59,941 bases of DNA from Gammaproteobacteria bacterium. GTDB lineage: Bacteria; Pseudomonadota; Gammaproteobacteria; SZUA-152. Positions 16,160 through 26,555 of the stretch are shown here, in pieces; position 1 is the stretch's first letter, and every line of letters begins with the position of its first letter. The stretch spans positions 1 through 59,941 of the forward strand of contig JAKEGK010000053.1 in the NCBI GenBank assembly GCA_022627515.1, written 5' to 3'. The notes below the pieces were generated by a model, which saw only the letters and a program-made list of their open reading frames with translations, made no database searches and was not told the DNA's origin. A program made the translations under genes and the position numbers.

Positions 16160-17176
16160 ATGAAATATCGCGTCAACCTGCAACCCAGTTATCACACGCT
16201 AGATGTGGACGAAAATGAATCCATATTAAGCGCGGCATTGCGCGAAGGCATTCATCTTGCCTATGGTTGCCGCAGCGGAACCTGCGGCACCTGCAAAAGC
16301 GTATTACTGGAGGGTAAGGTGGCGTATCCCGTTGAACAGGCGCTGGCTTTGACTGATGAAGAACGGCAACACGGCGCAGCCCTGTTATGCCAGGCGCAAC
16401 CCCGTTCTGATCTGACGATTGCCGCGCAAGTCATTCCCCATGATGATGTGATCGTGGTGAAAAAGCTCCCCTGCCGTGTTTCCCAAAAACAGCTGGTCTG
16501 CCACGATGTGCTCAGGTTGCTACTTAAATTACCCGTTATGGAAAAGTTTTCTTACCGCGCTGGCCAGTATATCGACATACTCCTGCCCGATGGCCGCCGC
16601 CGCAGTTTTTCCCTGGCCAACGCGCCATTTGTAAACGGATCCCTGGAGTTGCATGTACGGCATGTCGAGGGCGGAGATTTTACCGGCTACGTATTTAAAG
16701 AACTCGAGGAAAAAACCATTTTAAGGGTGGAAGGGCCGCATGGGCAATTTTTCCTGCGGGAAGACTCGGACAGGCCGATTATTTTCATGGCAGGCGGAAC
16801 CGGCTTTGCGCCAATCAAAAGCATTATTGAATTCTGCATCATCAATGATATTCAACGCCCCATGTATTTGTATTGGGGGGCGCGTGCGCAGCAGGATTTA
16901 TACATGAATGACCTGGCCGCATTGTGGGCGAAAGATTTTCCTCATATTCACTATATTCCCGTGTTATCGGCTCCAAAACCGCAAGACGATAAATCCATTC
17001 GCACAGGGCTGGTCCATGAGGCGATTACGAAGGATTTTCCGGATTTATCCGGTTATGAAGTGTATGCGAGTGGCCCGCCGATGATGGTCAAGGCCGGCAA
17101 GGAAGCTTTTGCCCGTTGCCACTTGCCACCGGAACATTATTATTCTGATGCTTTTGAATTTCAGCGTCCCAAGTAG
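16160..17176 (+). CDS. 2Fe-2S ferredoxin / FNR-type NAD(P)H oxidoreductase (AscD or oxygenase-reductase-like)
   Basis: N-terminal plant-type 2Fe-2S motif CRSGTCGTCKS...C. This is followed by an FAD-binding RSFSLAN motif and an NAD-binding GGTGFAP motif. Confidence 0.85.
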   Translation: MKYRVNLQPSYHTLDVDENESILSAALREGIHLAYGCRSGTCGTCKSVLLEGKVAYPVEQALALTDEERQHGAALLCQAQPRSDLTIAAQVIPHDDVIVVKKLPCRVSQKQLVCHDVLRLLLKLPVMEKFSYRAGQYIDILLPDGRRRSFSLANAPFVNGSLELHVRHVEGGDFTGYVFKELEEKTILRVEGPHGQFFLREDSDRPIIFMAGGTGFAPIKSIIEFCIINDIQRPMYLYWGARAQQDLYMNDLAALWAKDFPHIHYIPVLSAPKPQDDKSIRTGLVHEAITKDFPDLSGYEVYASGPPMMVKAGKEAFARCHLPPEHYYSDAFEFQRPK

Positions 17177-17189
17177 ATTTGAGCAGGAC

Positions 17190-17618
17190 TTAAAAATAAT
17201 ATGCGGCGCCAGGCATGCGGATCAGATACGATCGCCCGTTGTAATTTGCACCAGCCCCCCCTTCAAAGACCAGAATTCTTAGCAGCGTTCCGGGACCTTG
17301 ATTATAGGTCCAGTGTTCGATCGATTTGGTAACGGATTCCTTGCGCCGGATCACAGCCGGATCACTGTTATCCGTTGGCGCATCACCTTCACGGCTGCCG
17401 GATTCGGAGGACGTCAAAGGGATGTCGATTCGCCTGGACTCTTCCTTTTCGCCGACAGTTTCTTTCAGCATGGGTTCACCGCAATTTAATAGCACATCAG
17501 CCTTGCTGTCGCCCACTGAAATCAGTTTGGTTCCACAGCGCATGCTTGTATCGGCGTAACCAGCGGGATACAGGAGAAAAAACATCAAAAAGGTCATAAC
17601 GCATATATTAACTTTCAT
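17190..17618 (-). CDS. DUF2845-like secreted protein
   Basis: Signal peptide MKVNICVMTFLMFFLLYPAGYA, then MRCGTKLISVGDSKADVLLNCGEP...HWTYNQGPG, which as I recall is the DUF2845 pattern. The start at ATG 17618 is preceded by GGGAGG. Confidence 0.68.
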   Translation of the reverse strand: MKVNICVMTFLMFFLLYPAGYADTSMRCGTKLISVGDSKADVLLNCGEPMLKETVGEKEESRRIDIPLTSSESGSREGDAPTDNSDPAVIRRKESVTKSIEHWTYNQGPGTLLRILVFEGGAGANYNGRSYLIRMPGAAYYF

Positions 17619-17796
17619 ATCTTGCCTCCCCTTTAAGCTGCCACGCATGAAGTACATTGCCCGTTTATGTACAATAATAACGGAAATAAACACCACAAAC
17701 CGTCGTTTTTATAAATGAATATCCGCGGCGTCAGGATCAGGCGCCAGGATCTTTATCGTGATTGTTTTTATTGCCAATATTCACTATGCTCCCCGC

Positions 17797-18696
17797 ATGA
17801 TAAGGACTCTAACCTGGCCGCCGGAATTGGCGAAACCCGCCGGCGCAACCCACTGGCAACACGCCAACAGCAATATCAGCCTGGATTTCCATGGTGATCC
17901 GCTTGCTGCACATCTTACTGTATTTTCAGACGGTAATCATCACATGGCGTTACAGGAAACAGTGGAATTGTTTCTGCGCCTGCATCCCGCTGCCGAGGAT
18001 GTGTTTTATGCGACCACGCCGCCCAACATTTTGACGGCCTACCTGGAACACGGCAGATTGCAACTTGGTAATCTGCTTCTCTCCCGGATGCCGCACGTTT
18101 TCATCAGCCCCGCGAACGTGATGAATCAACTGGTCAAGAAAGGTTTTATCAGCAGTCACCGCGCTTTTATGCAAAGTAGTGGCAACGTGTTATTGATCAC
18201 CAAAGACAATCCCAAAAACATCAGCGGCCTCACCGACCTGCTGCGGGATGATGTGAAGTTATTCATATCCAATCCGCAAACGGAAAAAGCCAGCTTCCAG
18301 GTTTATCGTGACACGTTGTTGGGATTGGCGCGGGAGCAGGGATTGGATACGAAACGATTGGAACAAAAGCTGGAGCCGGGCAGCAGCACAACGGTTTTTG
18401 GCGAATGCATACACCACCGCGAGGCGCCGCAGGCGCTGTTTGCGGGCGGCGCGGATGTAGCCATGGTGTATTATCATCTGGCGTTGCGTTATACGCGAAT
18501 CTTTCCCGGGCAGTTTGATTTTATTCCCTTGGGCGGCAGCAAGGCTGCGCCGGCGCCGGGTCCTACCAATGTGACCACGGCTTATCACGCCGGTTTATTG
18601 AATGATCCTGGCGCGTGGGGTCAATTGTTTCTGGATTTTCTGTTCAGCAGCCGTGTAACCAAAATTTATCAGTCGCATGGTTTGCGGCGCCCGTGA
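17797..18696 (+). CDS. Periplasmic-binding-protein-fold (ModA/PBP2-like) protein without a signal peptide
   Basis: About 300 aa with the alternating pattern of type-2 binding proteins (VFSDGNHHMAL..., NPQTEKASFQVY, ADVAMVYYH). The N-terminus MIRTLTWPPELAKP is not hydrophobic. The family assignment is tentative. Confidence 0.6.
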   Translation: MIRTLTWPPELAKPAGATHWQHANSNISLDFHGDPLAAHLTVFSDGNHHMALQETVELFLRLHPAAEDVFYATTPPNILTAYLEHGRLQLGNLLLSRMPHVFISPANVMNQLVKKGFISSHRAFMQSSGNVLLITKDNPKNISGLTDLLRDDVKLFISNPQTEKASFQVYRDTLLGLAREQGLDTKRLEQKLEPGSSTTVFGECIHHREAPQALFAGGADVAMVYYHLALRYTRIFPGQFDFIPLGGSKAAPAPGPTNVTTAYHAGLLNDPGAWGQLFLDFLFSSRVTKIYQSHGLRRP

Positions 18697-18755
18697 CAAT
18701 GCGATTTGAAAACTGTTGCTTCGGCTTTTTATATTGATGTTCTTTAAAAGTGCCG

Positions 18756-21143
18756 TTATTTAAATGTAATAAACATCGCCGAGGTCCACACCTTGCCGTC
18801 GTCAATTTGCCGTGCTGCGATATACACCGGGCGGAAACCATGCGGTCCGTTATGGGGATCCACATCGATGGTGCCGGACACATCCCGTGGCATGGATTTG
18901 CCGCTTAAACGCTCCAGCGCCAAAAACAATTCGGTGCCGCCCAGCTCCTTGCGCAACGCACCGGCATCCAGCAATTCCCTGCCGTTGATCTCCCAACTGA
19001 ATGATGGGCAATGCACAAACGGATTGCCATCCAGCGGATTGCCCACCTTGACATAACCATCAATGGTACCTTCAATGCGGATAATGCATTGTTCCAGATT
19101 GCTCACATCCAGGTCGATGGCATCGGCATCACCATAGGTGTCAGAACGAAAGCGGATCGTTGTGGGCGAAACCCGGCCGCAGGTTTCTTCACCGTGTTCG
19201 AAACCGTGGGCGTTAAAACTGTTGACGATGCCATTGGTAATCGTGATGGCGCCTTTCCAGTCCGCCCACCGGTAGCGGTCCTTGATGCGCGCGCCACCCC
19301 AGCGTAACCGGATGCGCCGCCCGGAATAACCATATTCTTCCTGTAAATTGCGGCGCCAGAAACACCCGTTATGATCATACGCCGCAATTTCATCCCAGCC
19401 CGCATCACCCAGAAACCGGTAATGAATTTCGGCGCTGCCGGTGCAAGTAAATTCATCACCCTGAATGTATTTGCCGCATGTTGTAAGGCCTACCAGACGT
19501 TCGCCGGTCGTGGCCCAGGTGTGCCGCGCGCGCAGCGCCTTACCAATGGTGGCGCGATCCAGTTTTTCAGCCACGATACCGGTAATACCACCCTTGGTGC
19601 CGAATACCGCCGTGCCAGGCACGCCACCGCCACAGCGGCCACGGTGTTCATCGCCATTAGCTGACGCTCCGAGCTTATAACCGCGGCGCATGACGTCTTC
19701 ATATAACCAGGGAAAATGCCCCCAAGCCGATTCGATTTCCACCAGTTTTTCAAGCACCGGGTGATGCCAGTCCATATTGCAGCGCCGGCCGCCCACATGC
19801 GGCATCAACAGGTGGCCTTCCGGATCTTTGATATACGTCGCCCACAATTCTTCCAGCGGCCAGGCGCCGGGTTCGATCTGATCGCCGGTCATGTCTTCAT
19901 TCCATTCAAAGGAACGGCATACATTTCCATCGCGGTCAAATGGGAACTCCGGTGTGCCGCCGTGCAGAAACACGACGTTGTGATCACCACCGGCGCAGGA
20001 ATTACCGCACCATTCTGTGCCGGGATAACACACAAATTCTCCGTTTTGATTTAACTCGTTAATAAGTTCGACAGCCTTGTCCCAACGCTGTTTGGTGATC
20101 TGAAAATCATTGGCGGTATAACCCAGCACATCGAGGCCCACCACATCGCGGCCGTAGCTCAGGTTGTATAAGGTATCATTTGTACCCACGGTATCATCGG
20201 AATGCACATGCAAGTCGGCGAAATAGTTGCGGGCGAAAGATAATCCGTTCTCCAGACTAATATAGAACCACGCGTCGGGCACCCGCGGGTGCTGCGTCAG
20301 CCTCGCGCGGATTTCCATTTCTCCGGCCGTATTGGTGGGCAAATCGGAAATACTGGCTATGGCCCAGCCTTGCGCATTTAGCGTGATAAGGTTTTCATAC
20401 ACCGTCTTGCCCTCGGCAAGGCCGGTTATCTTTACCGCATCGCCGCCCGTGTTCCAACAGGTGTTGCCCCAGTTATCTTCCGCGCGGATGCGCAGGTTAA
20501 GTTTTTCTCCTGTGCGCACCAGGCGCGAGGCGGACATCATGAGTCTGGCGGGCGCGCCAGGCACGATATCAAACACAATATCTCCGGGAATAGCGCAAAA
20601 CCGGGACGTACCCAGTGGGTCGACGTAGCAACGAAAACGGAAATCTTTTTCTACAAATGTCTGCACGCGGGTGCCGGGACCGCCAAAACGGCGGTCACCC
20701 AGGCGAATGATTATGTGGTCACCCGGTTTTAAAAAACCATCTACGGTATCCACAATGACGGCCTTTTGAAACGGACGTTCATGTCCTTTTTGATCAAAAC
20801 GTACTTTTAATGATTGTACTGTTGCGGGGCTTTGGCCTTCCACCAGTGGCCCCGCCTGATATTCAGCGGAAACATAGTTGGCGCCCGCGGGATCGCTGGT
20901 CTGAAATAATGCCCAGTCAGAATAGAATTTAAACGTGGCTTTTAGCCACGCGCCATCGGCAATACCGGAAGCACCCACTTCATAATCCAATACAATTTCA
21001 TGCCAGCTGCCGGCTTCCAGCTTTTCAATATAACAGGTGACCTTGCCAAGAAATGGCGTGTCCTTGGTTTTTGCATACAAGCCTTCAGGAGCGATATAGT
21101 CGCCAAGAATTTTTTTTAATTGCGCATCAGACAATTTTTTCAT
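18756..21143 (-). CDS. Large cytoplasmic PHP-superfamily / DUF3604-like metal-dependent hydrolase (three-part, 795 aa)
   Basis: ADLHVHSDD motif at residues 309-317 (nt about 20219-20193). Other motifs are EWCGN..GGDHNVVF, PHVGGRR, SANGDEHRG and GITGIVAEKLDRATIGKALRARHTWATTGERL. As I recall these match the DUF3604 pattern. The core is flanked by about 300 aa N-terminal and about 250 aa C-terminal regions I cannot assign. No signal peptide. Confidence 0.72.
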   Translation of the reverse strand: MKKLSDAQLKKILGDYIAPEGLYAKTKDTPFLGKVTCYIEKLEAGSWHEIVLDYEVGASGIADGAWLKATFKFYSDWALFQTSDPAGANYVSAEYQAGPLVEGQSPATVQSLKVRFDQKGHERPFQKAVIVDTVDGFLKPGDHIIIRLGDRRFGGPGTRVQTFVEKDFRFRCYVDPLGTSRFCAIPGDIVFDIVPGAPARLMMSASRLVRTGEKLNLRIRAEDNWGNTCWNTGGDAVKITGLAEGKTVYENLITLNAQGWAIASISDLPTNTAGEMEIRARLTQHPRVPDAWFYISLENGLSFARNYFADLHVHSDDTVGTNDTLYNLSYGRDVVGLDVLGYTANDFQITKQRWDKAVELINELNQNGEFVCYPGTEWCGNSCAGGDHNVVFLHGGTPEFPFDRDGNVCRSFEWNEDMTGDQIEPGAWPLEELWATYIKDPEGHLLMPHVGGRRCNMDWHHPVLEKLVEIESAWGHFPWLYEDVMRRGYKLGASANGDEHRGRCGGGVPGTAVFGTKGGITGIVAEKLDRATIGKALRARHTWATTGERLVGLTTCGKYIQGDEFTCTGSAEIHYRFLGDAGWDEIAAYDHNGCFWRRNLQEEYGYSGRRIRLRWGGARIKDRYRWADWKGAITITNGIVNSFNAHGFEHGEETCGRVSPTTIRFRSDTYGDADAIDLDVSNLEQCIIRIEGTIDGYVKVGNPLDGNPFVHCPSFSWEINGRELLDAGALRKELGGTELFLALERLSGKSMPRDVSGTIDVDPHNGPHGFRPVYIAARQIDDGKVWTSAMFITFK

Positions 21144-21199
21144 TCACGCGTCTCCGGGAGTCTCAAGCGTCATACGTCAAACTGAGTCAGGAAGTTTAA

Positions 21200-22156
21200 T
21201 CAGGTCAAGCGCCATACTTCATAACGCTTTTCTATCGGGCGGAATAACATGCGTTCAAAGATATAGGAAAATAATCCGATCATCGCAATACCCAGCAACA
21301 CCAATCGGGAGTTTCCCACTTCACCGGCGGTCTGCACCATATATCCCAGACCCACCGATGCGCCAATCATTTCAGCGGCGACCAGGGCGCGCCACGCCTG
21401 GCTAAAGCCAATGCGCAATGCGGCAGTGACAAACGGCAAACTGGCGGGAAGGTAAACATATAACAGCAACTGCCAACGCCTTGCACCCAGAATGCGCGCC
21501 GCGCGGACTTCCTGCCCCTGGATTTGCAGCACGCCTTCCATAATGGTGAGTATCATGGGGTTGACCGCTGAAATAAAAATGACGATGACAATGGTGGTAT
21601 AACCCAAACCAAAAATGATGACCATCAGTGGCGCCCAGGCAATCGGGGGTATGGCCATGAACAAACCGTTTAACGGCACGATGTATTCGCGGAAGCCCTT
21701 AAAAAAGCCAGCCAGAAATCCGAAAATCAGCGAGAAAACAATAGCGGCGCCAAATCCGCCTACCTCTTCCAGCAGGCTCCAGCCAACGTGCGGCCAGATT
21801 TCCCCGCGAAAAAAATGCTGCACTGCGGCAACCAGTTCCCCGTGACTGAGCAAGCGCCATGTTGTGACGCGTTCTTCTTCCGGAATTTCAACGATATTAC
21901 CGTCATCGTCCATGACTGTTTCCTGGGTGGGAAACAGCATTTCATTCCAGGCTTCGTCAAGCACTTCCCAGGGTTGGGGCAGAATGTAGGATTCAAATTG
22001 GGTGGCAACCAAAATCCAGGCCAGTAGCAGCGAAGGAATGGATAACCATGACCAGGAGGCGTAGCGGCGTAGAAATTCCAGAGGTGCGGTCATAAGCCCG
22101 GAAAATGACGATGTTGTTGATGCCGGTGACGAAACTTTTGCCGCAGGAACACTCAC
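21200..22156 (-). CDS. ABC transporter permease (NitT/TauT-like BPD family)
   Basis: Multi-TM protein with an EAA-type loop (AARILGARRWQLLLYVYLPASLP). The start (GTG 22156 or ATG 22093) is uncertain. Confidence 0.85.
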   Translation of the reverse strand: MSVPAAKVSSPASTTSSFSGLMTAPLEFLRRYASWSWLSIPSLLLAWILVATQFESYILPQPWEVLDEAWNEMLFPTQETVMDDDGNIVEIPEEERVTTWRLLSHGELVAAVQHFFRGEIWPHVGWSLLEEVGGFGAAIVFSLIFGFLAGFFKGFREYIVPLNGLFMAIPPIAWAPLMVIIFGLGYTTIVIVIFISAVNPMILTIMEGVLQIQGQEVRAARILGARRWQLLLYVYLPASLPFVTAALRIGFSQAWRALVAAEMIGASVGLGYMVQTAGEVGNSRLVLLGIAMIGLFSYIFERMLFRPIEKRYEVWRLT

Positions 22157-22288
22157 AGCTGTACTCCTTCCTGTTACGTTTTACGTTCAAGAGTTAACGA
22201 ATATCGAAAAATCTCTCTTTTTATTAGATAAAAAATGTGTAAACGACGGGCGGGCGGTCCTGATATTATTCTCAGGACCGCCGCTTTG

Positions 22289-23284
22289 TCATTTCATGGC
22301 TATGGCTTCCTGCATAAAGCTGTTGTCGACTATTTCCTCAACCGTCAGGCGCTTCTTGATGAATCCCAGTTCATAGGAATAATTCATCAGGCGCTGGATA
22401 AATTCCATATCCTCCTTTTTCAATTCGTATTCCCAGCCCAGACGTTCCCGGGCCATAGCGACGATTTCCGTAGGTCCGTGTTTTTTGCCATTAACATCAG
22501 TAACCTCCCCAAGGTTAAAGGCTTTGGCAATGATGCCGTTGCCGGCGTTGGGCTTGGAATTGAGGTATTCCACCGCTTGTTTATGCGCGCGCAGCACCTT
22601 GATTACTTCGGTGCGCTTATTTTTGAGTGTATCGGGCATCGCCATGACGATGTACCAGGGATACTTGGGCACGGCTTTGTTCATATCAAAAATCAGTTGG
22701 GTGTTGCCGCGGATCAGCGATTGCGACGTGAAGGGTTCCCAGATAAAAGCCGCGTTAACCACTTTCTCGTCAACCGCGGAATCCATATTGCCGGTGGGCA
22801 TGGATACTATTTCCAATTCTGTGTCGGGTTTCAATTTGGCCGCATCTCCCAGCACATAACCCCGCAGCAGCACATCCATGCCGCTGCCCTTGCGCACGCC
22901 GGCCATTTTTTTATTCTTAAGATCGCTCAACTGATTCACGCCAGAGTCCTTGCGAGAGATTACCGCCGCCTGGCCATAATTCACTTTTGCCAGAATGCGG
23001 CTTTCCAAACCGCGGGAAAACCAGTGATAGACCGGTGGTGCGCCAATATACGCCATATCCAGTTCGCCGGCGGACAATGCCTGATGCAGCAGAGGTCCGC
23101 TTTTAAATTCCTTGATCTCAACATCAATACCCTGTTCTTTAAAATAACCTTTTTCATTAGCAACCAGAACCGGAGCATTCGCCATGGCGTATACCCAGCC
23201 AATGCGAATTTTCTCTCCCGCATAACTGGTTAAAGAGAACATCATCATTAACGCGATAACTAAAATAACTTTTAATTTCGGCAT
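22289..23284 (-). CDS. ABC transporter substrate-binding protein (NMT1/THI5-like, NitT/TauT family)
   Basis: Signal peptide MPKLKVILVIALMMMFSLTSYA, then an NMT1-like body (IRIGWVYAMANAPVLVA..GYFKEQGIDVE). The start at ATG 23284 lies 9 nt after AGGGAG. Confidence 0.85.
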   Translation of the reverse strand: MPKLKVILVIALMMMFSLTSYAGEKIRIGWVYAMANAPVLVANEKGYFKEQGIDVEIKEFKSGPLLHQALSAGELDMAYIGAPPVYHWFSRGLESRILAKVNYGQAAVISRKDSGVNQLSDLKNKKMAGVRKGSGMDVLLRGYVLGDAAKLKPDTELEIVSMPTGNMDSAVDEKVVNAAFIWEPFTSQSLIRGNTQLIFDMNKAVPKYPWYIVMAMPDTLKNKRTEVIKVLRAHKQAVEYLNSKPNAGNGIIAKAFNLGEVTDVNGKKHGPTEIVAMARERLGWEYELKKEDMEFIQRLMNYSYELGFIKKRLTVEEIVDNSFMQEAIAMK

Positions 23285-23331
23285 AGCCTTCATCTCCCTG
23301 ACCAAAATGGCCTAATGATAAACGACATGAA

Positions 23332-24177
23332 TTATTCCAAAACTTCCGCGTGTTGTGCCAAACGAAGTTCCCGCATTTCTTCTTCACTTTGGGGACTTTG
23401 CGCGGTAACAACTGCGATATCCTCAATTAACTGCTTTTTATATTGCCAAAACAAATCCTTGGTGCGTGTGTTGGGTCCGCTGCGAGGCCGCGGCAACTCA
23501 TTTTCCATGATTTTGTAAATGCCGTGAGGCGGCCGGCCGCACACCACGATGCGATCGGACAGATAAACCGCTTCATCAATGTCATGGGTGATAAATAGGA
23601 CTGTTTGTCCCAGTTCGTCCCAAATGCGTAACAACTCGTCATTCATGGTTTCCCGCGTTATCGCGTCAAGCGCACCGAAGGGTTCATCCATTAACAATAA
23701 GGTGGGTTCCATGGCCAATGATCGCGCCAGTGAAACACGCTGTTGCATACCACCGGATAACCGCAACACCAAAAAATCTTCGAATCCCTTTAATCCAACC
23801 AGGTGGAAATATTTCAACGCCCTTTCCCGCCGCGCATCCGAGGGTATGCCGATCATACGTAAACCGAATTCGACGTTTTCAATGGCGCTTAACCAGGGAA
23901 ACAGGGTTGGTTGCTGAAAAACGTAACCGAGGTGGGTGTCTTCCGGGGCGATGGGCTGGCCGCGCAATCGCACACTGCCTTGTTCAGGCTGATAAAAACC
24001 AGACAATAAATTCAATAATGTTGTTTTACCACATCCCGAAGGACCGATAATGGATAAAAATTCACCGGGCTTAACGTTCAAATTGAGATTCAGAAAGATG
24101 GATAGTTTTCCACCGTAGGAAAAATTCACACTATCGATAACCAGATCCTCGCCACCGACGCGATCAATGTGTGACAA
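23332..24177 (-). CDS. ABC transporter ATP-binding protein (NitT/TauT family)
   Basis: Walker A GPSGCGKTT, signature LSGGMQQRV, Walker B LLLMDEPF. Confidence 0.92.
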   Translation of the reverse strand: MSHIDRVGGEDLVIDSVNFSYGGKLSIFLNLNLNVKPGEFLSIIGPSGCGKTTLLNLLSGFYQPEQGSVRLRGQPIAPEDTHLGYVFQQPTLFPWLSAIENVEFGLRMIGIPSDARRERALKYFHLVGLKGFEDFLVLRLSGGMQQRVSLARSLAMEPTLLLMDEPFGALDAITRETMNDELLRIWDELGQTVLFITHDIDEAVYLSDRIVVCGRPPHGIYKIMENELPRPRSGPNTRTKDLFWQYKKQLIEDIAVVTAQSPQSEEEMRELRLAQHAEVLE

Positions 24178-24430
24178 AAAGTTATCCTCCCCGGCTTGAA
24201 CAACAGCAGTTCATTAATTGTGCAATGTTGGAAAATGAAAGACTGTGATATTTGTTATGTAATAAACAGTCATTGTTAAACTAGACTAATTCCTTAACAG
24301 CGTTATTCTATAGAAGACTTTGCTGAAGTCTGTCGCGTATGCGACAGCTTTCGGCGGGATGTGAAAAAATACTTTTAAACCATAGGCGAAAGGTAACCCT
24401 ATTAACGTTCACCCCTTCAGGAGCAGCCGC

Positions 24431-25132
24431 ATGTATAAGGATGATGCATCGTTTGGCTTTCTGCAAAAACTTGATCAGAACGAACAGCGCTCACTGGAGG
24501 CAATTGCCACTTGTCTTAGTTTCAAAAGAAAGGAATATATATTCCAGGCCAACCTGACTAGTAATGCCATTTACGTCTTGGTTGAAGGGAGGGTGAAACT
24601 ATCCCGATTGTCAGCTCTGGGCCAGGAATGTATACAATGGTTTTGCTGTCCCGGAGAAATTTTTGGCTTGTCGCAAAACGTTTATGACTACGATAGTGGT
24701 TTGTATGCGCAAGCGTTGGCGCCATCCAAAGTATGGGCGATCTCAAGATATGAATTTAATCAGCTGCTGCTGGAAAAACCCAGGCTGGGACTGATCATCA
24801 TTGAACAGCTCAGCTCACGGGTCAGATCCCTGGGTAACCTGCTATTACATATAACCTGCGATAACGCCCACAGCCGCCTGGTTAATCTCCTGCATCGATT
24901 TGCCCAATTGTATGGCAGCCGCGCCGGGAATGAAATTTACATTGATATGCAATTAACGCATCAGGAAATAGCCGACATGATTGGCGTATGCCGGCAGACT
25001 GTTTCTACAATGATGGCTAATCTGAAGCGCTCAGGCATCGTATCCGCCGACAGGCGGGGAATATCCATAAAATGCCCCGCGTCGCTCGACAAACTTTTAA
25101 ATAGCAAGACATCGCCGGTCTTGGTTGGTTGA
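24431..25132 (+). CDS. Crp/Fnr family transcriptional regulator
   Basis: cNMP-binding-type beta-barrel (VLVEGRVKLSRLS..GQE) plus a C-terminal HTH (LTHQEIADMIGVCRQTVSTMMANLKRSG). It lacks the FNR N-terminal Cys cluster. It is divergent from the ABC operon. Confidence 0.85.
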   Translation: MYKDDASFGFLQKLDQNEQRSLEAIATCLSFKRKEYIFQANLTSNAIYVLVEGRVKLSRLSALGQECIQWFCCPGEIFGLSQNVYDYDSGLYAQALAPSKVWAISRYEFNQLLLEKPRLGLIIIEQLSSRVRSLGNLLLHITCDNAHSRLVNLLHRFAQLYGSRAGNEIYIDMQLTHQEIADMIGVCRQTVSTMMANLKRSGIVSADRRGISIKCPASLDKLLNSKTSPVLVG

Positions 25133-25286
25133 GCTGAAATGATTTGTTTTAATTCACTGGAAGCAATGTGACGCATTAATTACAGGGGGGTGGACGGATT
25201 AACTTAGGACGATTTCAAGTAATAAGAGCAATTAACTCACGCAGCGAGTAAATCTACACGCTGCGCCCGGTAATCACCAATGAATA

Positions 25287-26555
25287 CTATTTCCGCGCGG
25301 ATATCAGCGTCTGGGGTTTTTGCAGAGGCTGATGTTCCAGCTCGAGTAACCTGGAACCAGCCGCAACGCTGTGTTCGCAATGAGATGTTTTGGCGAGGCC
25401 TTCCCGGTAATACCGCATGGCCAATTCGCTTTCACCCATAGTTTCCAGCAGATGCGCCAGTTCATTATAAGTTTCCGCCGGCCCATTGGCCGCGACACTC
25501 GCTTCAAAATAACTCCGCGCCTTACCCCATAACCGGTTGCGCAAACATAGCCGCCCCAGGGTCAAGAGTAAAACCGGATCACTGCCTTCACGCTCAAGCC
25601 AGTGCTCAGCATACGCCAATTGAGCTCTGGGATCAGCGCCATCAATAACACCATATAAACGCACCAATTCACTGTTCCATTCCCGTTTTAATGCATTGCG
25701 AATCATAGGCTCCACAATATCACTGTTACCCAGATCCAGCAGCAGCTGAATATATGTCGTCAAAACCTCAATATGATTTTGCACGTGTTGTGGTATCCGA
25801 TACCAAAGATCCTGTAATTGTTTCGCCGATGCGGGCGGGTGAGGGGACAAAAAAGCTTTATAGGCACGGCGCTCCAACGTATCCAGTTCCCCGGCTGTAA
25901 ATACTTTACGGCGGCGCAATTGCGGAATCATGTCAATCAGGTTATTCCATTCCCCCATGTCAAGATAAAGATTGGCGAGGGTTTTTAACACGGTACGGTG
26001 CTGAGGATTCACCAGTTGCAATGTCCGTAAGGTTGCCAACGCCTGTTCTTGCTGGTGTTGGCTGAGCTGCAATTCCACCTGGGTGAGTTTGACACCAGCA
26101 TCGTTGACACTGGCATTTTGCCCCGCCAATTTCAGATAACGATCCCGGCGATCGTATTCATTGAGCTCGTGAGCAGCGCGCGCAGCCGCCAGGTAATTCA
26201 GCATCGGAGCGCGGCTGTCATTGATATGTTTCAGCACATCTTTCTCCGCCCGCCGCCAGTCACCTTCCGCCAGCTTAACGAGACCGTCCAGTAAAGTCTG
26301 GTTTGCGCGCTCCTGCCGGCGTTGCTCCCGCCAAATCTTCATACCCCTTGGCATTTGAAACAGGTTTGCCAGAAACCGCAGGGTATAATGGACGCTCAAA
26401 AACGCGATGATCAGCAACACTATCCACGTAACCAGCGAAGACTCAATCGTGTAACCCCGCGCGCTTATCAATACATAGCCCCTGTTTTCCATTGCCAGCA
26501 AGGTCAGGGAGGCCATGATAATAATGGTAATTAACGTATAAGAAAGCCACTTCAT
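25287..26555 (-). CDS. hemY: HemY-like heme-biosynthesis-associated TPR membrane protein
   Basis: Two N-terminal TM segments plus TPR-like repeats. It sits in the conserved position after hemC-hemD-hemX. Confidence 0.82.
   Translation of the reverse strand: MKWLSYTLITIIIMASLTLLAMENRGYVLISARGYTIESSLVTWIVLLIIAFLSVHYTLRFLANLFQMPRGMKIWREQRRQERANQTLLDGLVKLAEGDWRRAEKDVLKHINDSRAPMLNYLAAARAAHELNEYDRRDRYLKLAGQNASVNDAGVKLTQVELQLSQHQQEQALATLRTLQLVNPQHRTVLKTLANLYLDMGEWNNLIDMIPQLRRRKVFTAGELDTLERRAYKAFLSPHPPASAKQLQDLWYRIPQHVQNHIEVLTTYIQLLLDLGNSDIVEPMIRNALKREWNSELVRLYGVIDGADPRAQLAYAEHWLEREGSDPVLLLTLGRLCLRNRLWGKARSYFEASVAANGPAETYNELAHLLETMGESELAMRYYREGLAKTSHCEHSVAAGSRLLELEHQPLQKPQTLISARK

What the first reader, a model, noticed from the sequence alone, without database searches (positions are those of the whole stretch)
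17797..25132. Uncharacterised uptake-plus-hydrolysis locus: NitT/TauT-type ABC importer fused in an operon with a giant cytoplasmic DUF3604/PHP-like hydrolase
Four minus-strand genes are separated by short gaps of 26, 132 and 56 nt. They are the ATPase (23332-24177), an NMT1/THI5-like binding protein (22289-23284), the permease (21200-22156) and a 795-aa metal-dependent hydrolase (18756-21143).

A Crp/Fnr-family regulator is transcribed divergently (24431-25132). A leaderless binding-protein-fold gene (17797-18696) converges on the hydrolase.

NitT/TauT importers usually carry nitrate, sulfonates, bicarbonate, or pyrimidine or thiamine precursors. They are normally partnered with oxygenases or kinases, not with a PHP-type hydrolase.

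I know of no described pathway with this gene combination, so the imported substrate and the bond being hydrolysed are open questions. This is the best candidate in the window for an undescribed multi-gene functional module.
Basis: partly seen in the sequence, partly recalled or inferred. Interest (0 to 1): 0.6.

Follow-up and report, generated by a model that had tools for sequence, protein, structure and literature searches.

The report
Unstudied anion import-and-hydrolysis gene module
This is a real, widely conserved but never-studied gene set in which bacteria import a small negatively charged compound and cleave it inside the cell with a large metal enzyme and a partner protein; neighbouring genes hint, without proving, that the compound carries sulfur.

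Summary
Comparison across genomes shows they form one functional module.

**What stays constant.** The core is the 795-aa cytoplasmic hydrolase (HYD, 64-89% identical across Gamma-, Beta- and Alphaproteobacteria) plus the leaderless protein that resembles a sulfate-binding protein (SBP11). Within one bacterial order the two genes are gained and lost together.

**What varies.** The importer does. The NitT/TauT ABC system seen here is one of three alternatives. The others are a DASS symporter and a TctCBA transporter, and they have been swapped repeatedly even among close HYD orthologues.

**Regulation.** A conserved palindrome, TGTCG-N6-CGACA (window 24331-24346), sits upstream of whichever importer is present, and often upstream of HYD. 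It is the likely operator of the Crp/Fnr-type regulator.

**The enzyme.**
- HYD has a PHP-like metal core between beta-sandwich domains.
- No solved structure shares the overall architecture.
- No paper describes the family.

**Substrate.** It is unknown. Three observations favour a small sulfo- or sulfate-bearing anion:
- SoeABC-type sulfite dehydrogenase operons lie next to the module in five loci.
- TauE occurs nearby.
- The binding proteins resemble SsuA and Sbp.

A suspected link to Xsc did not survive a control.

The scan has flagged this same module before on other DNA.

The parts
17797..18696 (+). SBP11: leaderless, cytoplasmic protein resembling sulfate- and molybdate-binding proteins; the constant partner of HYD
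   Evidence: - Pfam SBP_bac_11, 70.9 bits.
- A profile of 40 orthologues best matches the Salmonella sulfate-binding protein 1sbp (E 5e-6), then PEB3/AcfC and ModA.
- No signal peptide.
- 27 invariant columns, including H32, H206, H207, H227, E10, D30, E163, E209, D220 and R208; H48, H49 and H294 are 90% or more conserved.
- Found next to HYD in 34 of 43 fully flanked loci. At least three more copies were hidden under antisense ORFs.
- Phyletic pattern in one order: both genes 11, HYD only 3, SBP11 only 2, neither 135.
18756..21143 (-). HYD: 795-aa cytoplasmic three-part metallohydrolase-like protein. Beta-sandwich domains span about 30-300, a PHP-like alpha/beta core about 305-560, and further beta-sandwich domains about 560-795.
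   Evidence: - AlphaFold2 model: pLDDT 89.2, pTM 0.87.
- A model of the core alone hits only PHP-family structures at the top: 3e38, 3e0f, RNase AM 9etk/7ug9 and 2yb1.
- Residues invariant across the close and the distant family: D310, H312, N345, E377, D387, N389, R410, H449, R453, E469, D498, H500, R503.
- Residues specific to this subfamily: H314, C379, H388, H444, H711 and a Cys trio C383/C455/C504.
- More than 1400 homologues; the 120 best hits listed either carry no source name or are called 'hypothetical protein'.
21200..22156 (-). ABC permease, NitT/TauT type
   Evidence: BPD_transp_1, 86.7 bits. Best NCBIfam hit is TauC at 144 bits, below the equivalog cut-off of 342.
22253..22282 (.). 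Strong 11-bp-stem hairpin in the 132-nt gap between the binding-protein and permease genes
   Evidence: Found by the pattern scan; sequence checked. Its function was not tested. The position fits an intercistronic mRNA-stabilising or attenuating hairpin.
22289..23284 (-). Periplasmic substrate-binding protein of the ABC importer, SsuA/NMT1-like. ATG start at 23284; an upstream TTG lies at 23305.
   Evidence: - NMT1_2, 93.7 bits.
- SsuA_fam, 148.5 bits against a cut-off of 163.5.
- Best solved relative is E. coli SsuA, 2x26, E 7e-8.
- A signal peptide is visible in the translation.
23332..24177 (-). ABC ATPase
   Evidence: ABC_tran, 122.9 bits. Best NCBIfam hit is the taurine transporter ATPase at 230 bits, below the cut-off of 357.
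24331..24346 (.). Palindrome TGTCGCGTATGCGACA, the candidate operator of the Crp/Fnr-type regulator. It lies 154 nt from the ATPase start and 84 nt from the regulator start.
   Evidence: - TGTC-N8-GACA occurs in 17 of 30 divergent Crp/importer intergenic regions.
- TGTCG-N6-CGACA with at most one mismatch was found in 55 of 75 loci, although many of the one-mismatch hits lie inside genes. The recurrent placement is about 100-150 nt upstream of the first importer gene, whatever its type, or of HYD.
- Only two exact copies exist in the 4.45-Mb genome, and the other is inside a gene.
24431..25132 (+). Crp/Fnr-family regulator transcribed divergently from the importer operon
   Evidence: - cNMP_binding + HTH_Crp_2.
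- No equivalog match; the best is NtcA at 72 bits against a cut-off of 245.
- No FNR-type N-terminal cysteine cluster.
- An orthologue lies within 8 kb of HYD in 28 of 43 fully flanked loci.

Best explanation
The locus is a self-contained regulon for importing and cleaving one compound.

**Proposed sequence of events**
1. A small anionic compound is taken up by a dedicated importer. Here that is a NitT/TauT-type ABC system. In other genomes a DASS symporter or a TctCBA transporter does the same job.
2. In the cytoplasm a bond in the compound is hydrolysed by HYD, a 795-aa enzyme with a PHP-like metal centre.
3. HYD works together with SBP11, a cytoplasmic protein that resembles a sulfate-binding protein. 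SBP11 binds the substrate, its oxyanion product, or the enzyme's metal.
4. The divergently transcribed Crp/Fnr-type regulator binds the TGTCG-N6-CGACA box upstream of the importer operon and switches the genes on in response to the compound or its product.

**Most likely substrate class**
The most likely substrate is a small organic or inorganic anion carrying a sulfonate, sulfinate or sulfate-ester group, probably with a second acidic group. Its sulfur is released as sulfite or sulfate. In this sulfur oxidiser, sulfite could be passed to its SoeABC-type sulfite dehydrogenase.

**Shown versus inferred**
- Shown: the gene set, its conservation, the importer swapping, the conserved palindrome, the fold, and the conserved metal-ligand-like residues.
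- Inferred: hydrolysis as the reaction, the role of SBP11, activation by the regulator, and the sulfur nature of the substrate.
For: **Module and regulon**
- HYD is flanked by an importer in 39 of 43 loci with full flanks.
- The three importer types were identified by Pfam and NCBIfam.
- Importer type changes at least 4 to 10 times on the HYD tree, including inside a clade of 78-86% identical orthologues.
- The palindrome recurs upstream of ABC, DASS and TctC genes alike.
- SBP11 and HYD share a phyletic pattern: 11 both, 3 and 2 singly, 135 neither.

**Hydrolase**
- The model is confident.
- Its core matches PHP phosphoesterases.
- A D-x-H-x-H motif, E377, H449 and D498-x-H500 are invariant, as are three arginines.

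**Sulfur link**
- A SoeABC-architecture operon lies next to the module in L036, L050, L059, L063 and L070. It consists of a 950-1010-aa Mo subunit without a Tat leader, a Fer4_11 subunit and a DmsC-like anchor.
- Of 26 HYD genomes that have this Mo subunit, 4 have it within 10 kb of HYD. About 0.13 would be expected by chance.
- In L050 the order is SBP11-TauE-SoeABC-Crp-DASS-HYD in one block.
- TauE lies near HYD in 3 loci, and a SulP permease in one.
- The best solved relative of the ABC binding protein is SsuA. For SBP11 it is the sulfate-binding protein.
- The window's own genome has a 72.5% identical SoeA-like gene.
Against: - No substrate, product or activity is known for any member.
- Every solved PHP relative is a phosphoesterase or nuclease, so a phosphate ester is the default chemistry for the fold.
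- The sulfur evidence is contextual and sparse. SoeABC is adjacent in 5 of 75 loci, which are not fully independent lineages. TauE appears only in Hyphomicrobiales.
- True Xsc is adjacent in only 2 related loci. Its genome-level co-occurrence (36 of 50) is explained by lineage: 124 of 151 genomes in one order have it regardless of HYD.
- The window's genome has no Xsc.
- Most flanking genes are unrelated to sulfur and vary widely.
- The binding proteins score below the curated cut-offs for SsuA and TauA.
- Membership of the PHP family rests on a domain model of only moderate confidence (pLDDT 66.5).
- Co-transcription and regulator binding are untested.
Confidence: 0.5

Rival explanations
1. 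The same import-and-hydrolyse module, but the substrate is a phosphorylated organic acid, such as a phospho-hydroxy acid, or another phosphoester or anhydride. HYD would then be a phosphoesterase like its PHP relatives. SBP11 would bind the phospho-compound or the released phosphate.
For: - All top structural relatives of the core are PHP phosphoesterases or nucleases: 3e38, 3e0f, RNase AM and the 3',5'-bisphosphate nucleotidase 2yb1.
- Three arginines are invariant in the core.
- SBP11 also matches PEB3/AcfC. From memory, PEB3 binds phosphoglycerate.
- The ABC binding protein has a secondary Phosphonate-bd match.
- PPK2 lies among the flanks twice.
Against: - No link to Pho-regulon genes was seen, and the module has its own Crp-type regulator instead.
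- The recurrent non-core neighbours are sulfite- and sulfate-related (SoeABC, TauE, SulP), not phosphate-related.
- The importer families found here (SsuA-like ABC, DASS, TTT) are not the usual organophosphate importers. This last point is from general knowledge and was not tested.
Confidence: 0.2
2. HYD is an amidase or carbamate hydrolase like CehA/McbA. It would free an amine or acid from an N-acyl or N-carbamoyl derivative of an anionic compound, for example an N-acylated taurine-like molecule. The product would then enter existing pathways.
For: - A weak match to the CehA/McbA metallohydrolase domain: 21 bits over residues 480-575.
- In two Burkholderiales loci the module sits next to a taurine gene set of TauA, Xsc and a MocR-type regulator.
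Against: - The CehA/McbA score is far below the cut-off of 80.
- Taurine-gene adjacency is limited to two related loci.
- The closest relatives of this window's HYD sit in genomes without Xsc.
Confidence: 0.1
3. The module handles an inorganic oxyanion or a metal rather than breaking down a compound. SBP11 would be a cytoplasmic carrier for an oxyanion or metal, and HYD would process or store it.
For: - SBP11 belongs to the sulfate/molybdate-binding protein class and is unusually rich in invariant histidines.
- MoeA-type genes occur three times among the flanks.
- Exported DUF3604 proteins elsewhere travel with metal-handling helpers, according to earlier scan notes that I did not check.
Against: - None of the three importer types is a ModABC- or CysPTWA-type oxyanion system.
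- An 795-aa enzyme-like protein with conserved catalytic-type residues is hard to explain as a carrier.
- The MoeA genes may simply serve the neighbouring Mo enzyme.
Confidence: 0.08
4. The gene neighbourhood is coincidental and the ABC importer and HYD are functionally unrelated.
For: The ABC type itself accompanies HYD in only about 16-24 of 75 loci.
Against: - An importer is adjacent in 39 of 43 fully flanked loci.
- A shared palindrome precedes importer and HYD genes.
- The gene order ATPase, binding protein, permease, HYD recurs in many genera.
Confidence: 0.02

Closest known systems
Pfam DUF3604 (PF12228), an uncharacterised family
   Same: It is the only Pfam family that HYD reaches (28 bits against a cut-off of 20.4). 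A wider set of about 720-aa proteins, 30% identical to HYD and with the same three-part layout, scores 22-77 bits and is named 'DUF3604 domain-containing protein' by NCBI.
   Different: - Only 36 of 591 profile positions match in HYD.
- HYD orthologues form a tight subfamily of their own, with extra N-terminal helices, H314, C379, a Cys trio and an H711-C712 insertion.
- Only this subfamily shows the importer, SBP11 and Crp context; three loci of the 720-aa relatives had unrelated neighbours.
- No function is known for any DUF3604 protein.
PHP-superfamily metal-dependent phosphoesterases (BVU_3505 3e38, Bad_1165 3e0f, RNase AM/TrpH 9etk, Cv1693 2yb1)
   Same: These are the best structural matches of the HYD core (probability 0.96-1.0, TM 0.43-0.57). 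HYD has a D-x-H-x-H motif on the first strand, an invariant Glu, His and a D-x-H near the last strand, as in PHP metal sites.
   Different: - No sequence-level match. PF02811 finds four PHP proteins in this genome but not HYD.
- hhalign against the genome's TrpH-like protein gives probability 0.6%.
- PDB sequence and profile searches find nothing.
- The first ligand is Asp, not His.
- HYD is three times larger and is flanked by beta-sandwich domains with no global structural match (TM at most 0.17).
TauABC/TauD and SsuABC/SsuDE sulfonate uptake and desulfonation systems
   Same: An importer of the same ABC family (best hits TauB, TauC, SsuA family) is linked to a cytoplasmic enzyme acting on the imported anion.
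   Different: - All three importer components score below the equivalog cut-offs.
- The partner enzyme is a metallohydrolase-like protein, not an oxygenase.
- The regulator is Crp/Fnr-type.
- The importer can be replaced by DASS or TTT systems.
CehA/McbA carbaryl hydrolases (NCBIfam NF038032)
   Same: A weak local similarity over HYD residues 480-575.
   Different: The score is 21 bits against a cut-off of 80, so HYD is not a member. The context and size also differ.
DszB-type desulfinase, a cytoplasmic enzyme with a binding-protein fold (from memory, not tested)
   Same: It is a precedent for a leaderless protein of the periplasmic-binding-protein fold acting as a hydrolytic, sulfite-releasing enzyme. 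That is one possible role for SBP11.
   Different: DszB did not appear among the PDB matches of the SBP11 profile, which were Sbp, PEB3/AcfC and ModA. SBP11 has no invariant cysteine. This is an analogy only.

Membership tests
PHP superfamily (metal-dependent phosphoesterase fold) | Distorted (beta/alpha)7 barrel core | tested here: met
   The six best Foldseek PDB matches of the core model are all PHP-family structures. Caveat: the domain-only model has pLDDT 66.5. The same region is confident in the full-length model.
PHP superfamily (metal-dependent phosphoesterase fold) | Conserved metal ligands: H-x-H on strand 1, a bridging Glu, further His, and D-x-H near the last strand | tested here: inconclusive
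   D310-x-H312-x-H314, E377, H449 and D498-x-H500 are invariant in 74-75 of 75 orthologues. Their equivalence to PHP ligands could not be checked in three dimensions because no model coordinates were available. The first ligand is Asp rather than His.
PHP superfamily (metal-dependent phosphoesterase fold) | Match to the Pfam PHP model PF02811 or detectable sequence homology to a PHP protein | tested here: not met
   - PF02811 finds DnaE-type, PolX-type and TrpH-type proteins in this genome but not HYD.
- hhalign against the TrpH-like protein gives probability 0.6%.
- PDB sequence and profile searches are empty.
Pfam DUF3604 (PF12228) | Whole-protein score above the gathering cut-off of 20.4 bits | tested here: met
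   28 bits. However, no single stretch is significant and only profile positions 376-411 of 591 are matched. HYD is a divergent relative, not a typical member.
CehA/McbA family metallohydrolase (NF038032) | Score above the curated cut-off of 80 bits | tested here: not met
   21.4 bits.
NitT/TauT-family ABC importer | ATPase, BPD_transp_1 permease and NMT1/SsuA-type binding protein encoded together | tested here: met
   The binding protein has a signal peptide.
Taurine (TauABC) or aliphatic sulfonate (SsuABC) transporter, as equivalogs | Scores above the NCBIfam equivalog or subfamily cut-offs | tested here: not met
   - TauB: 230 against 357.
- TauC: 144 against 342.
- SsuA_fam: 148.5 against 163.5.
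- TauA: 44 against 304.
Crp/Fnr transcription factor family | N-terminal cNMP-binding-type effector domain plus C-terminal Crp-type helix-turn-helix | tested here: met
   PF00027 at 49 bits and PF13545 at 54.5 bits. No FNR-type Cys cluster and no equivalog match.
SoeABC-type cytoplasmic sulfite dehydrogenase (a neighbour in some loci, not in this window) | Mo subunit of about 1000 aa without a Tat leader, plus a 4Fe-4S subunit and an NrfD/DmsC-type membrane anchor | tested here: met
   Architecture shown. In two genomes this Mo-subunit gene lies within about 2 kb of a true Xsc gene. Identity with the characterised Allochromatium SoeA was not tested, because no reference sequence was at hand.
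Sulfate/molybdate-type periplasmic binding proteins (SBP_bac_11) | Pfam match, and export to the periplasm | tested here: not met
   The Pfam match is met at 70.9 bits. Export is not: the protein has no signal peptide here or in 37 of 39 aligned orthologues. It therefore has the fold of the family but not its role as a transporter component.

The most novel reading that the evidence does not exclude
HYD and SBP11 together form a new kind of hydrolytic sulfur-releasing enzyme system. In this reading a PHP-fold metalloenzyme, helped by a cytoplasmic protein resembling a sulfate-binding protein, splits sulfite or sulfate from an imported sulfonate, sulfinate or sulfate ester without oxygen, radicals or formylglycine. 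That would give uncultured sulfur oxidisers, sponge symbionts and groundwater bacteria an unrecognised route into the organosulfur pool.
Probability: 0.3. Interest if true: 0.8.

Novelty: new variant of a known kind. Interest (0 to 1): 0.62.

Why it matters
**Scale of the gap**
- The core enzyme is found in at least 263 species-level genomes and in more than 1400 protein clusters.
- It is kept at 64-89% identity across three proteobacterial classes.
- It has no name, no structure, no paper and no evident cultured host.

**What this work adds**
The module offers several concrete handles on function:
- three different periplasmic binding proteins that should all bind the same ligand;
- a regulator with a defined operator;
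- a two-protein cytoplasmic core.

**Possible consequences**
- If the sulfur reading is right, it adds an oxygen-independent hydrolytic step to organosulfur cycling in sediments, sponges and groundwater.
- If it is wrong, it still assigns a first function to the DUF3604-related enzymes.

Tried and rejected
1. **Xsc link.** My first clustering suggested sulfoacetaldehyde acetyltransferase next to HYD in six loci. A curated-model search showed the cluster mixed other thiamine enzymes. True Xsc is adjacent only in L062 and L064. Xsc is present in 36 of 50 HYD genomes, which looked striking. However, 124 of 151 genomes of one order have it whether or not they have HYD (13 of 14 against 111 of 137). 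I dropped it as evidence.
2. **Rhodanese.** It was seen near HYD in the first two look-ups but does not recur.
3. **Riboswitch or leader RNA.** No Rfam match at E up to 1 in 17000-25500.
4. **Further regulon members in this genome.** The only other exact operator copy lies inside a gene. No box lies upstream of SBP11 or in the internal gaps.
5. **Whole-chain fold search.** It returned only partial matches to immunoglobulin-like domains, with TM at most 0.17.
6. **PDB sequence and profile searches with HYD.** They returned nothing.
7. **Profile comparison with the genome's own TrpH-like PHP protein.** Negative.
8. **Context of the distant 720-aa relatives.** No shared neighbours were found, so they give no functional clue.
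9. **Bulk Pfam tally of 127 flanking proteins.** No further recurrent enzyme appeared.
10. **Literature.** Two papers mention DUF3604 in passing; the one I read says no activity or metal binding has been reported. Four further searches found no description of this module.
12. **Antisense ORFs.** ORF clusters 'c11' and 'c17' turned out to be antisense ORFs hiding real SBP11 genes and, probably, Crp genes in high-GC loci.

Full report
**1. The observation**

All six ORFs are present at the stated positions. Pfam and NCBIfam confirm an ABC ATPase, a BPD_transp_1 permease, an NMT1/SsuA-like binding protein with a signal peptide, a Crp/Fnr-type regulator and a leaderless SBP_bac_11 protein.

The 795-aa protein, called HYD here, reaches only one Pfam family. 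That is DUF3604, at 28 bits over 36 profile positions. It also gives a sub-threshold CehA/McbA hit. It has no export signal.

Two of the three stated gaps are exact. An 11-bp-stem hairpin occupies the 132-nt gap. No Rfam family matches the region.

**2. HYD is a large, tightly conserved, unnamed family**

- A word-indexed search gave more than 1400 homologues. The best 120 are full length and 70-89% identical. They come from Gamma-, Beta- and Alphaproteobacteria, and where a source names them they are 'hypothetical protein'.
- A scan of one genome per species found 263 encoding loci. All 80 retrieved were metagenome-assembled genomes.
- A full HMMER scan of 1.8 billion representatives showed that this orthologue group collapses into a few 50% clusters. 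Beyond it lies a wider set of about 720-aa proteins at about 30% identity with the same layout.
- Those wider relatives score better on DUF3604 and are named 'DUF3604 domain-containing protein'.
- Three loci of these distant relatives had unrelated neighbours. The context described below therefore belongs to the 795-aa subfamily.

**3. Neighbourhood comparison**

I called ORFs in 80 loci, clustered them, and oriented each locus on HYD. Five gene groups recur:
- the SBP_bac_11 protein (SBP11);
- the Crp/Fnr regulator;
- one of three importer types, listed next.

The three importer types are:
- the NitT/TauT ABC set;
- a 521-aa DASS/Na_sulph_symp carrier;
- TctC-TctB-TctA (first seen).

Among 43 loci with at least 8 kb on both sides, 39 have an importer: DASS in 15, TTT in 12, ABC in 6, and combinations in 6. 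SBP11 is present in 34 and Crp in 28. At least three apparent SBP11 absences were artefacts of antisense ORFs in high-GC DNA.

On a maximum-likelihood tree of HYD, well-supported branches force at least 9 changes of the ABC label, 10 of DASS and 4 of TTT. The window's own clade of ten close orthologues holds 5 ABC and 3 DASS loci. Repeated importer replacement around an unchanged enzyme argues that all three carry the same compound.

**4. A shared operator**

In 30 divergent Crp/importer intergenic regions, the palindrome TGTC-N8-GACA occurs 17 times. Allowing one mismatch to TGTCG-N6-CGACA, 55 of 75 loci have at least one copy. Many of those one-mismatch hits lie inside genes. The recurrent placement is typically 100-150 nt upstream of the first ABC, DASS or TctC gene, and about 100 nt upstream of HYD where HYD is a separate unit.

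In the window the site is TGTCGCGTATGCGACA at 24331-24346. The genome has only one other exact copy, inside a gene. The regulon here is therefore this locus alone. The regulator lacks FNR-type cysteines, so it probably senses a small ligand.

**5. SBP11 is the obligate partner**

In a sample of 151 genomes from one order:
- HYD occurs in 14 and SBP11 in 13;
- 11 have both, always adjacent;
- 3 have HYD only, two of them on very short contigs;
- 2 have SBP11 only;
- 135 have neither.

A profile of 40 SBP11 orthologues best matches the Salmonella sulfate-binding protein (E 5e-6), then PEB3/AcfC, another sulfate-binding protein and ModA. The segment aligned to the anion-binding loop of the sulfate-binding protein is the invariant S-N-P-x-T-E-x-x-S motif.

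Unusually for a binding protein, 27 columns are invariant. They include four histidines (H32, H206, H207, H227), and H48, H49 and H294 are 90% or more conserved. This would fit metal binding or catalysis as well as ligand binding. Its exact role is open.

**6. Structure of HYD**

With a 65-sequence alignment, AlphaFold2 gave pLDDT 89.2 and pTM 0.87. The model has beta-sandwich domains at about 30-300 and 560-795 and an alpha/beta core at about 305-560.

The whole chain has no global match in the PDB (TM at most 0.17). No sequence or profile match exists either.

A model of the core alone (pLDDT 66.5) hits, in order:
- the PHP-like phosphoesterases 3e38 and 3e0f;
- RNase AM;
- the bisphosphate nucleotidase 2yb1.

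Residues invariant across the close and the distant family are D310, H312, N345, E377, D387, N389, R410, H449, R453, E469, D498, H500 and R503. This is a plausible metal site plus three arginines for an anionic substrate.

The 795-aa subfamily adds further conserved residues:
- H314, H388 and H444;
- an H711-C712 insertion;
- C379, present in 75 of 75 and replaced by Ser in the distant family;
- a trio C383/C455/C504, present in 67-68 of 75 and apparently lost together in one small group of sequences.

All four cysteines sit directly after metal-ligand motifs. Whether they form an extra metal site could not be measured.

Sequence-level membership of the PHP family is not met.

**7. What is the substrate?**

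Outside the core the flanks vary, so the module looks self-contained. A few neighbours recur more often than chance.

- **SoeABC-type operon.** A three-gene operon with the architecture of the cytoplasmic sulfite dehydrogenase SoeABC lies beside the module in L036, L050, L059, L063 and L070.
- **Enrichment.** Of 26 HYD genomes with this Mo subunit, 4 have it within 10 kb. About 0.13 would be expected, giving a Poisson P of about 1e-5 if lineages were independent, which they only partly are.
- **L050.** This locus reads SBP11-TauE-SoeABC-Crp-DASS-HYD.
- **Other neighbours.** TauE, named a sulfite exporter in PMC5373536 (which cites Weinitschke 2007), lies near HYD in three Hyphomicrobiales loci. 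A SulP permease occurs once.
- **Binding proteins.** The ABC binding protein is closest to SsuA and SBP11 to the sulfate-binding protein.
- **Own genome.** It carries a 72.5% identical SoeA-like gene but no Xsc.

Together these favour a sulfur oxyanion product, but they do not prove it.

The fold argues instead for a phosphoester, and I keep that as the main rival. TTT and DASS carriers typically move carboxylates and dianions (general knowledge). I therefore suspect a second acidic group on the substrate.

**8. A correction made on the way**

An apparent Xsc link came from a clustering artefact and from lineage effects. It is not used as evidence.

**9. Comparison with what is known**

No paper in the library describes this family or module. 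The one paper I read that mentions DUF3604 says no activity or metal binding has been reported for it. Searches combining PHP, sulfonate, desulfonation, SoeABC, TauE and TTT terms found nothing relevant.

The nearest known systems are the TauABC/TauD and SsuABC/SsuDE sulfonate systems, which share the importer family but use a different enzyme and regulator, and the PHP phosphoesterases, which share the fold only.

Earlier notes of this scan describe the same module in other genomes with ABC, DASS and TTT importers and reach similar conclusions. I reached the importer alternation and the operator independently before reading them.

**10. Verdict**

The ABC importer is interchangeable, and the leaderless binding-protein-fold gene is the enzyme's true constant partner. 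The mechanism is import followed by metal-dependent hydrolysis under a dedicated Crp-type activator. The substrate class, most likely sulfur-bearing, remains to be shown.

Noticed in passing
window 22253-22282: Perfect 11-bp-stem hairpin (GGCGGTCCTGA...TCAGGACCGCC) in the 132-nt gap between the binding-protein and permease genes. It may stabilise or attenuate the transcript so that more binding protein than permease is made.
   Followed up: partly
protein cluster of P0001: Several distinct HYD variants, including P0014, P0395 and P0399, are filed in RefSeq under the cyanobacterium Kaarinaea lacus (Nostocales). The family is otherwise proteobacterial. Those contigs are probably from heterotrophs that accompany a non-axenic culture.
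   Followed up: no
L018, L069, L083: HYD-bearing contigs are binned as Spirochaetia, Enterobacteriaceae and Streptomycetaceae MAGs. In the HYD tree L018 and L083 sit among proteobacterial sequences. This suggests mis-binned contigs rather than transfer across phyla.
   Followed up: no
G021:C1:3969832-3975409 and G013:C32:4370-10729: True Xsc and the SoeA-like Mo subunit lie within about 2 kb of each other in two HYD-bearing genomes. This supports reading that Mo enzyme as a sulfite dehydrogenase serving sulfonate breakdown.
   Followed up: partly
order of G026, 151 genomes: Sulfoacetaldehyde acetyltransferase (Xsc) is present above the curated cut-off in 124 of 151 sampled genomes of this order, which includes Arenicellales MAGs. 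C2-sulfonate use seems nearly universal there.
   Followed up: no
L052, L057, L058, L067, downstream of HYD: In several Arenicellales-type loci HYD is followed by pntA/pntB-like transhydrogenase genes. A second NMT1-type binding protein with an ABC ATPase and permease comes after them, in addition to the upstream TctCBA.
   Followed up: no
L024, L040-L043, directly downstream of HYD: A 239-aa SAM-dependent methyltransferase follows HYD within about 10 nt in five loci. These are sponge-associated and Chromatiales MAGs. The best hit is CpaM-like at 58 bits, below the cut-off. Its role is unknown.
   Followed up: partly
L078 and L080: Two SBP11 homologues have a signal-peptide-like N-terminus, lack the S-D-G-N-H-H motif and carry insertions. 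They belong to the Betaproteobacteria-type HYD clade (L078-L084); whether that clade is the one lacking the Cys trio was not checked sequence by sequence. This may be a diverged version of the system.
   Followed up: no
window 25287-26555: The gene next to the regulator is a hemY-type TPR protein (TIGR00540, 357 bits). It marks the edge of the module, and the same flanks are kept in the closest relative, L006.
   Followed up: partly
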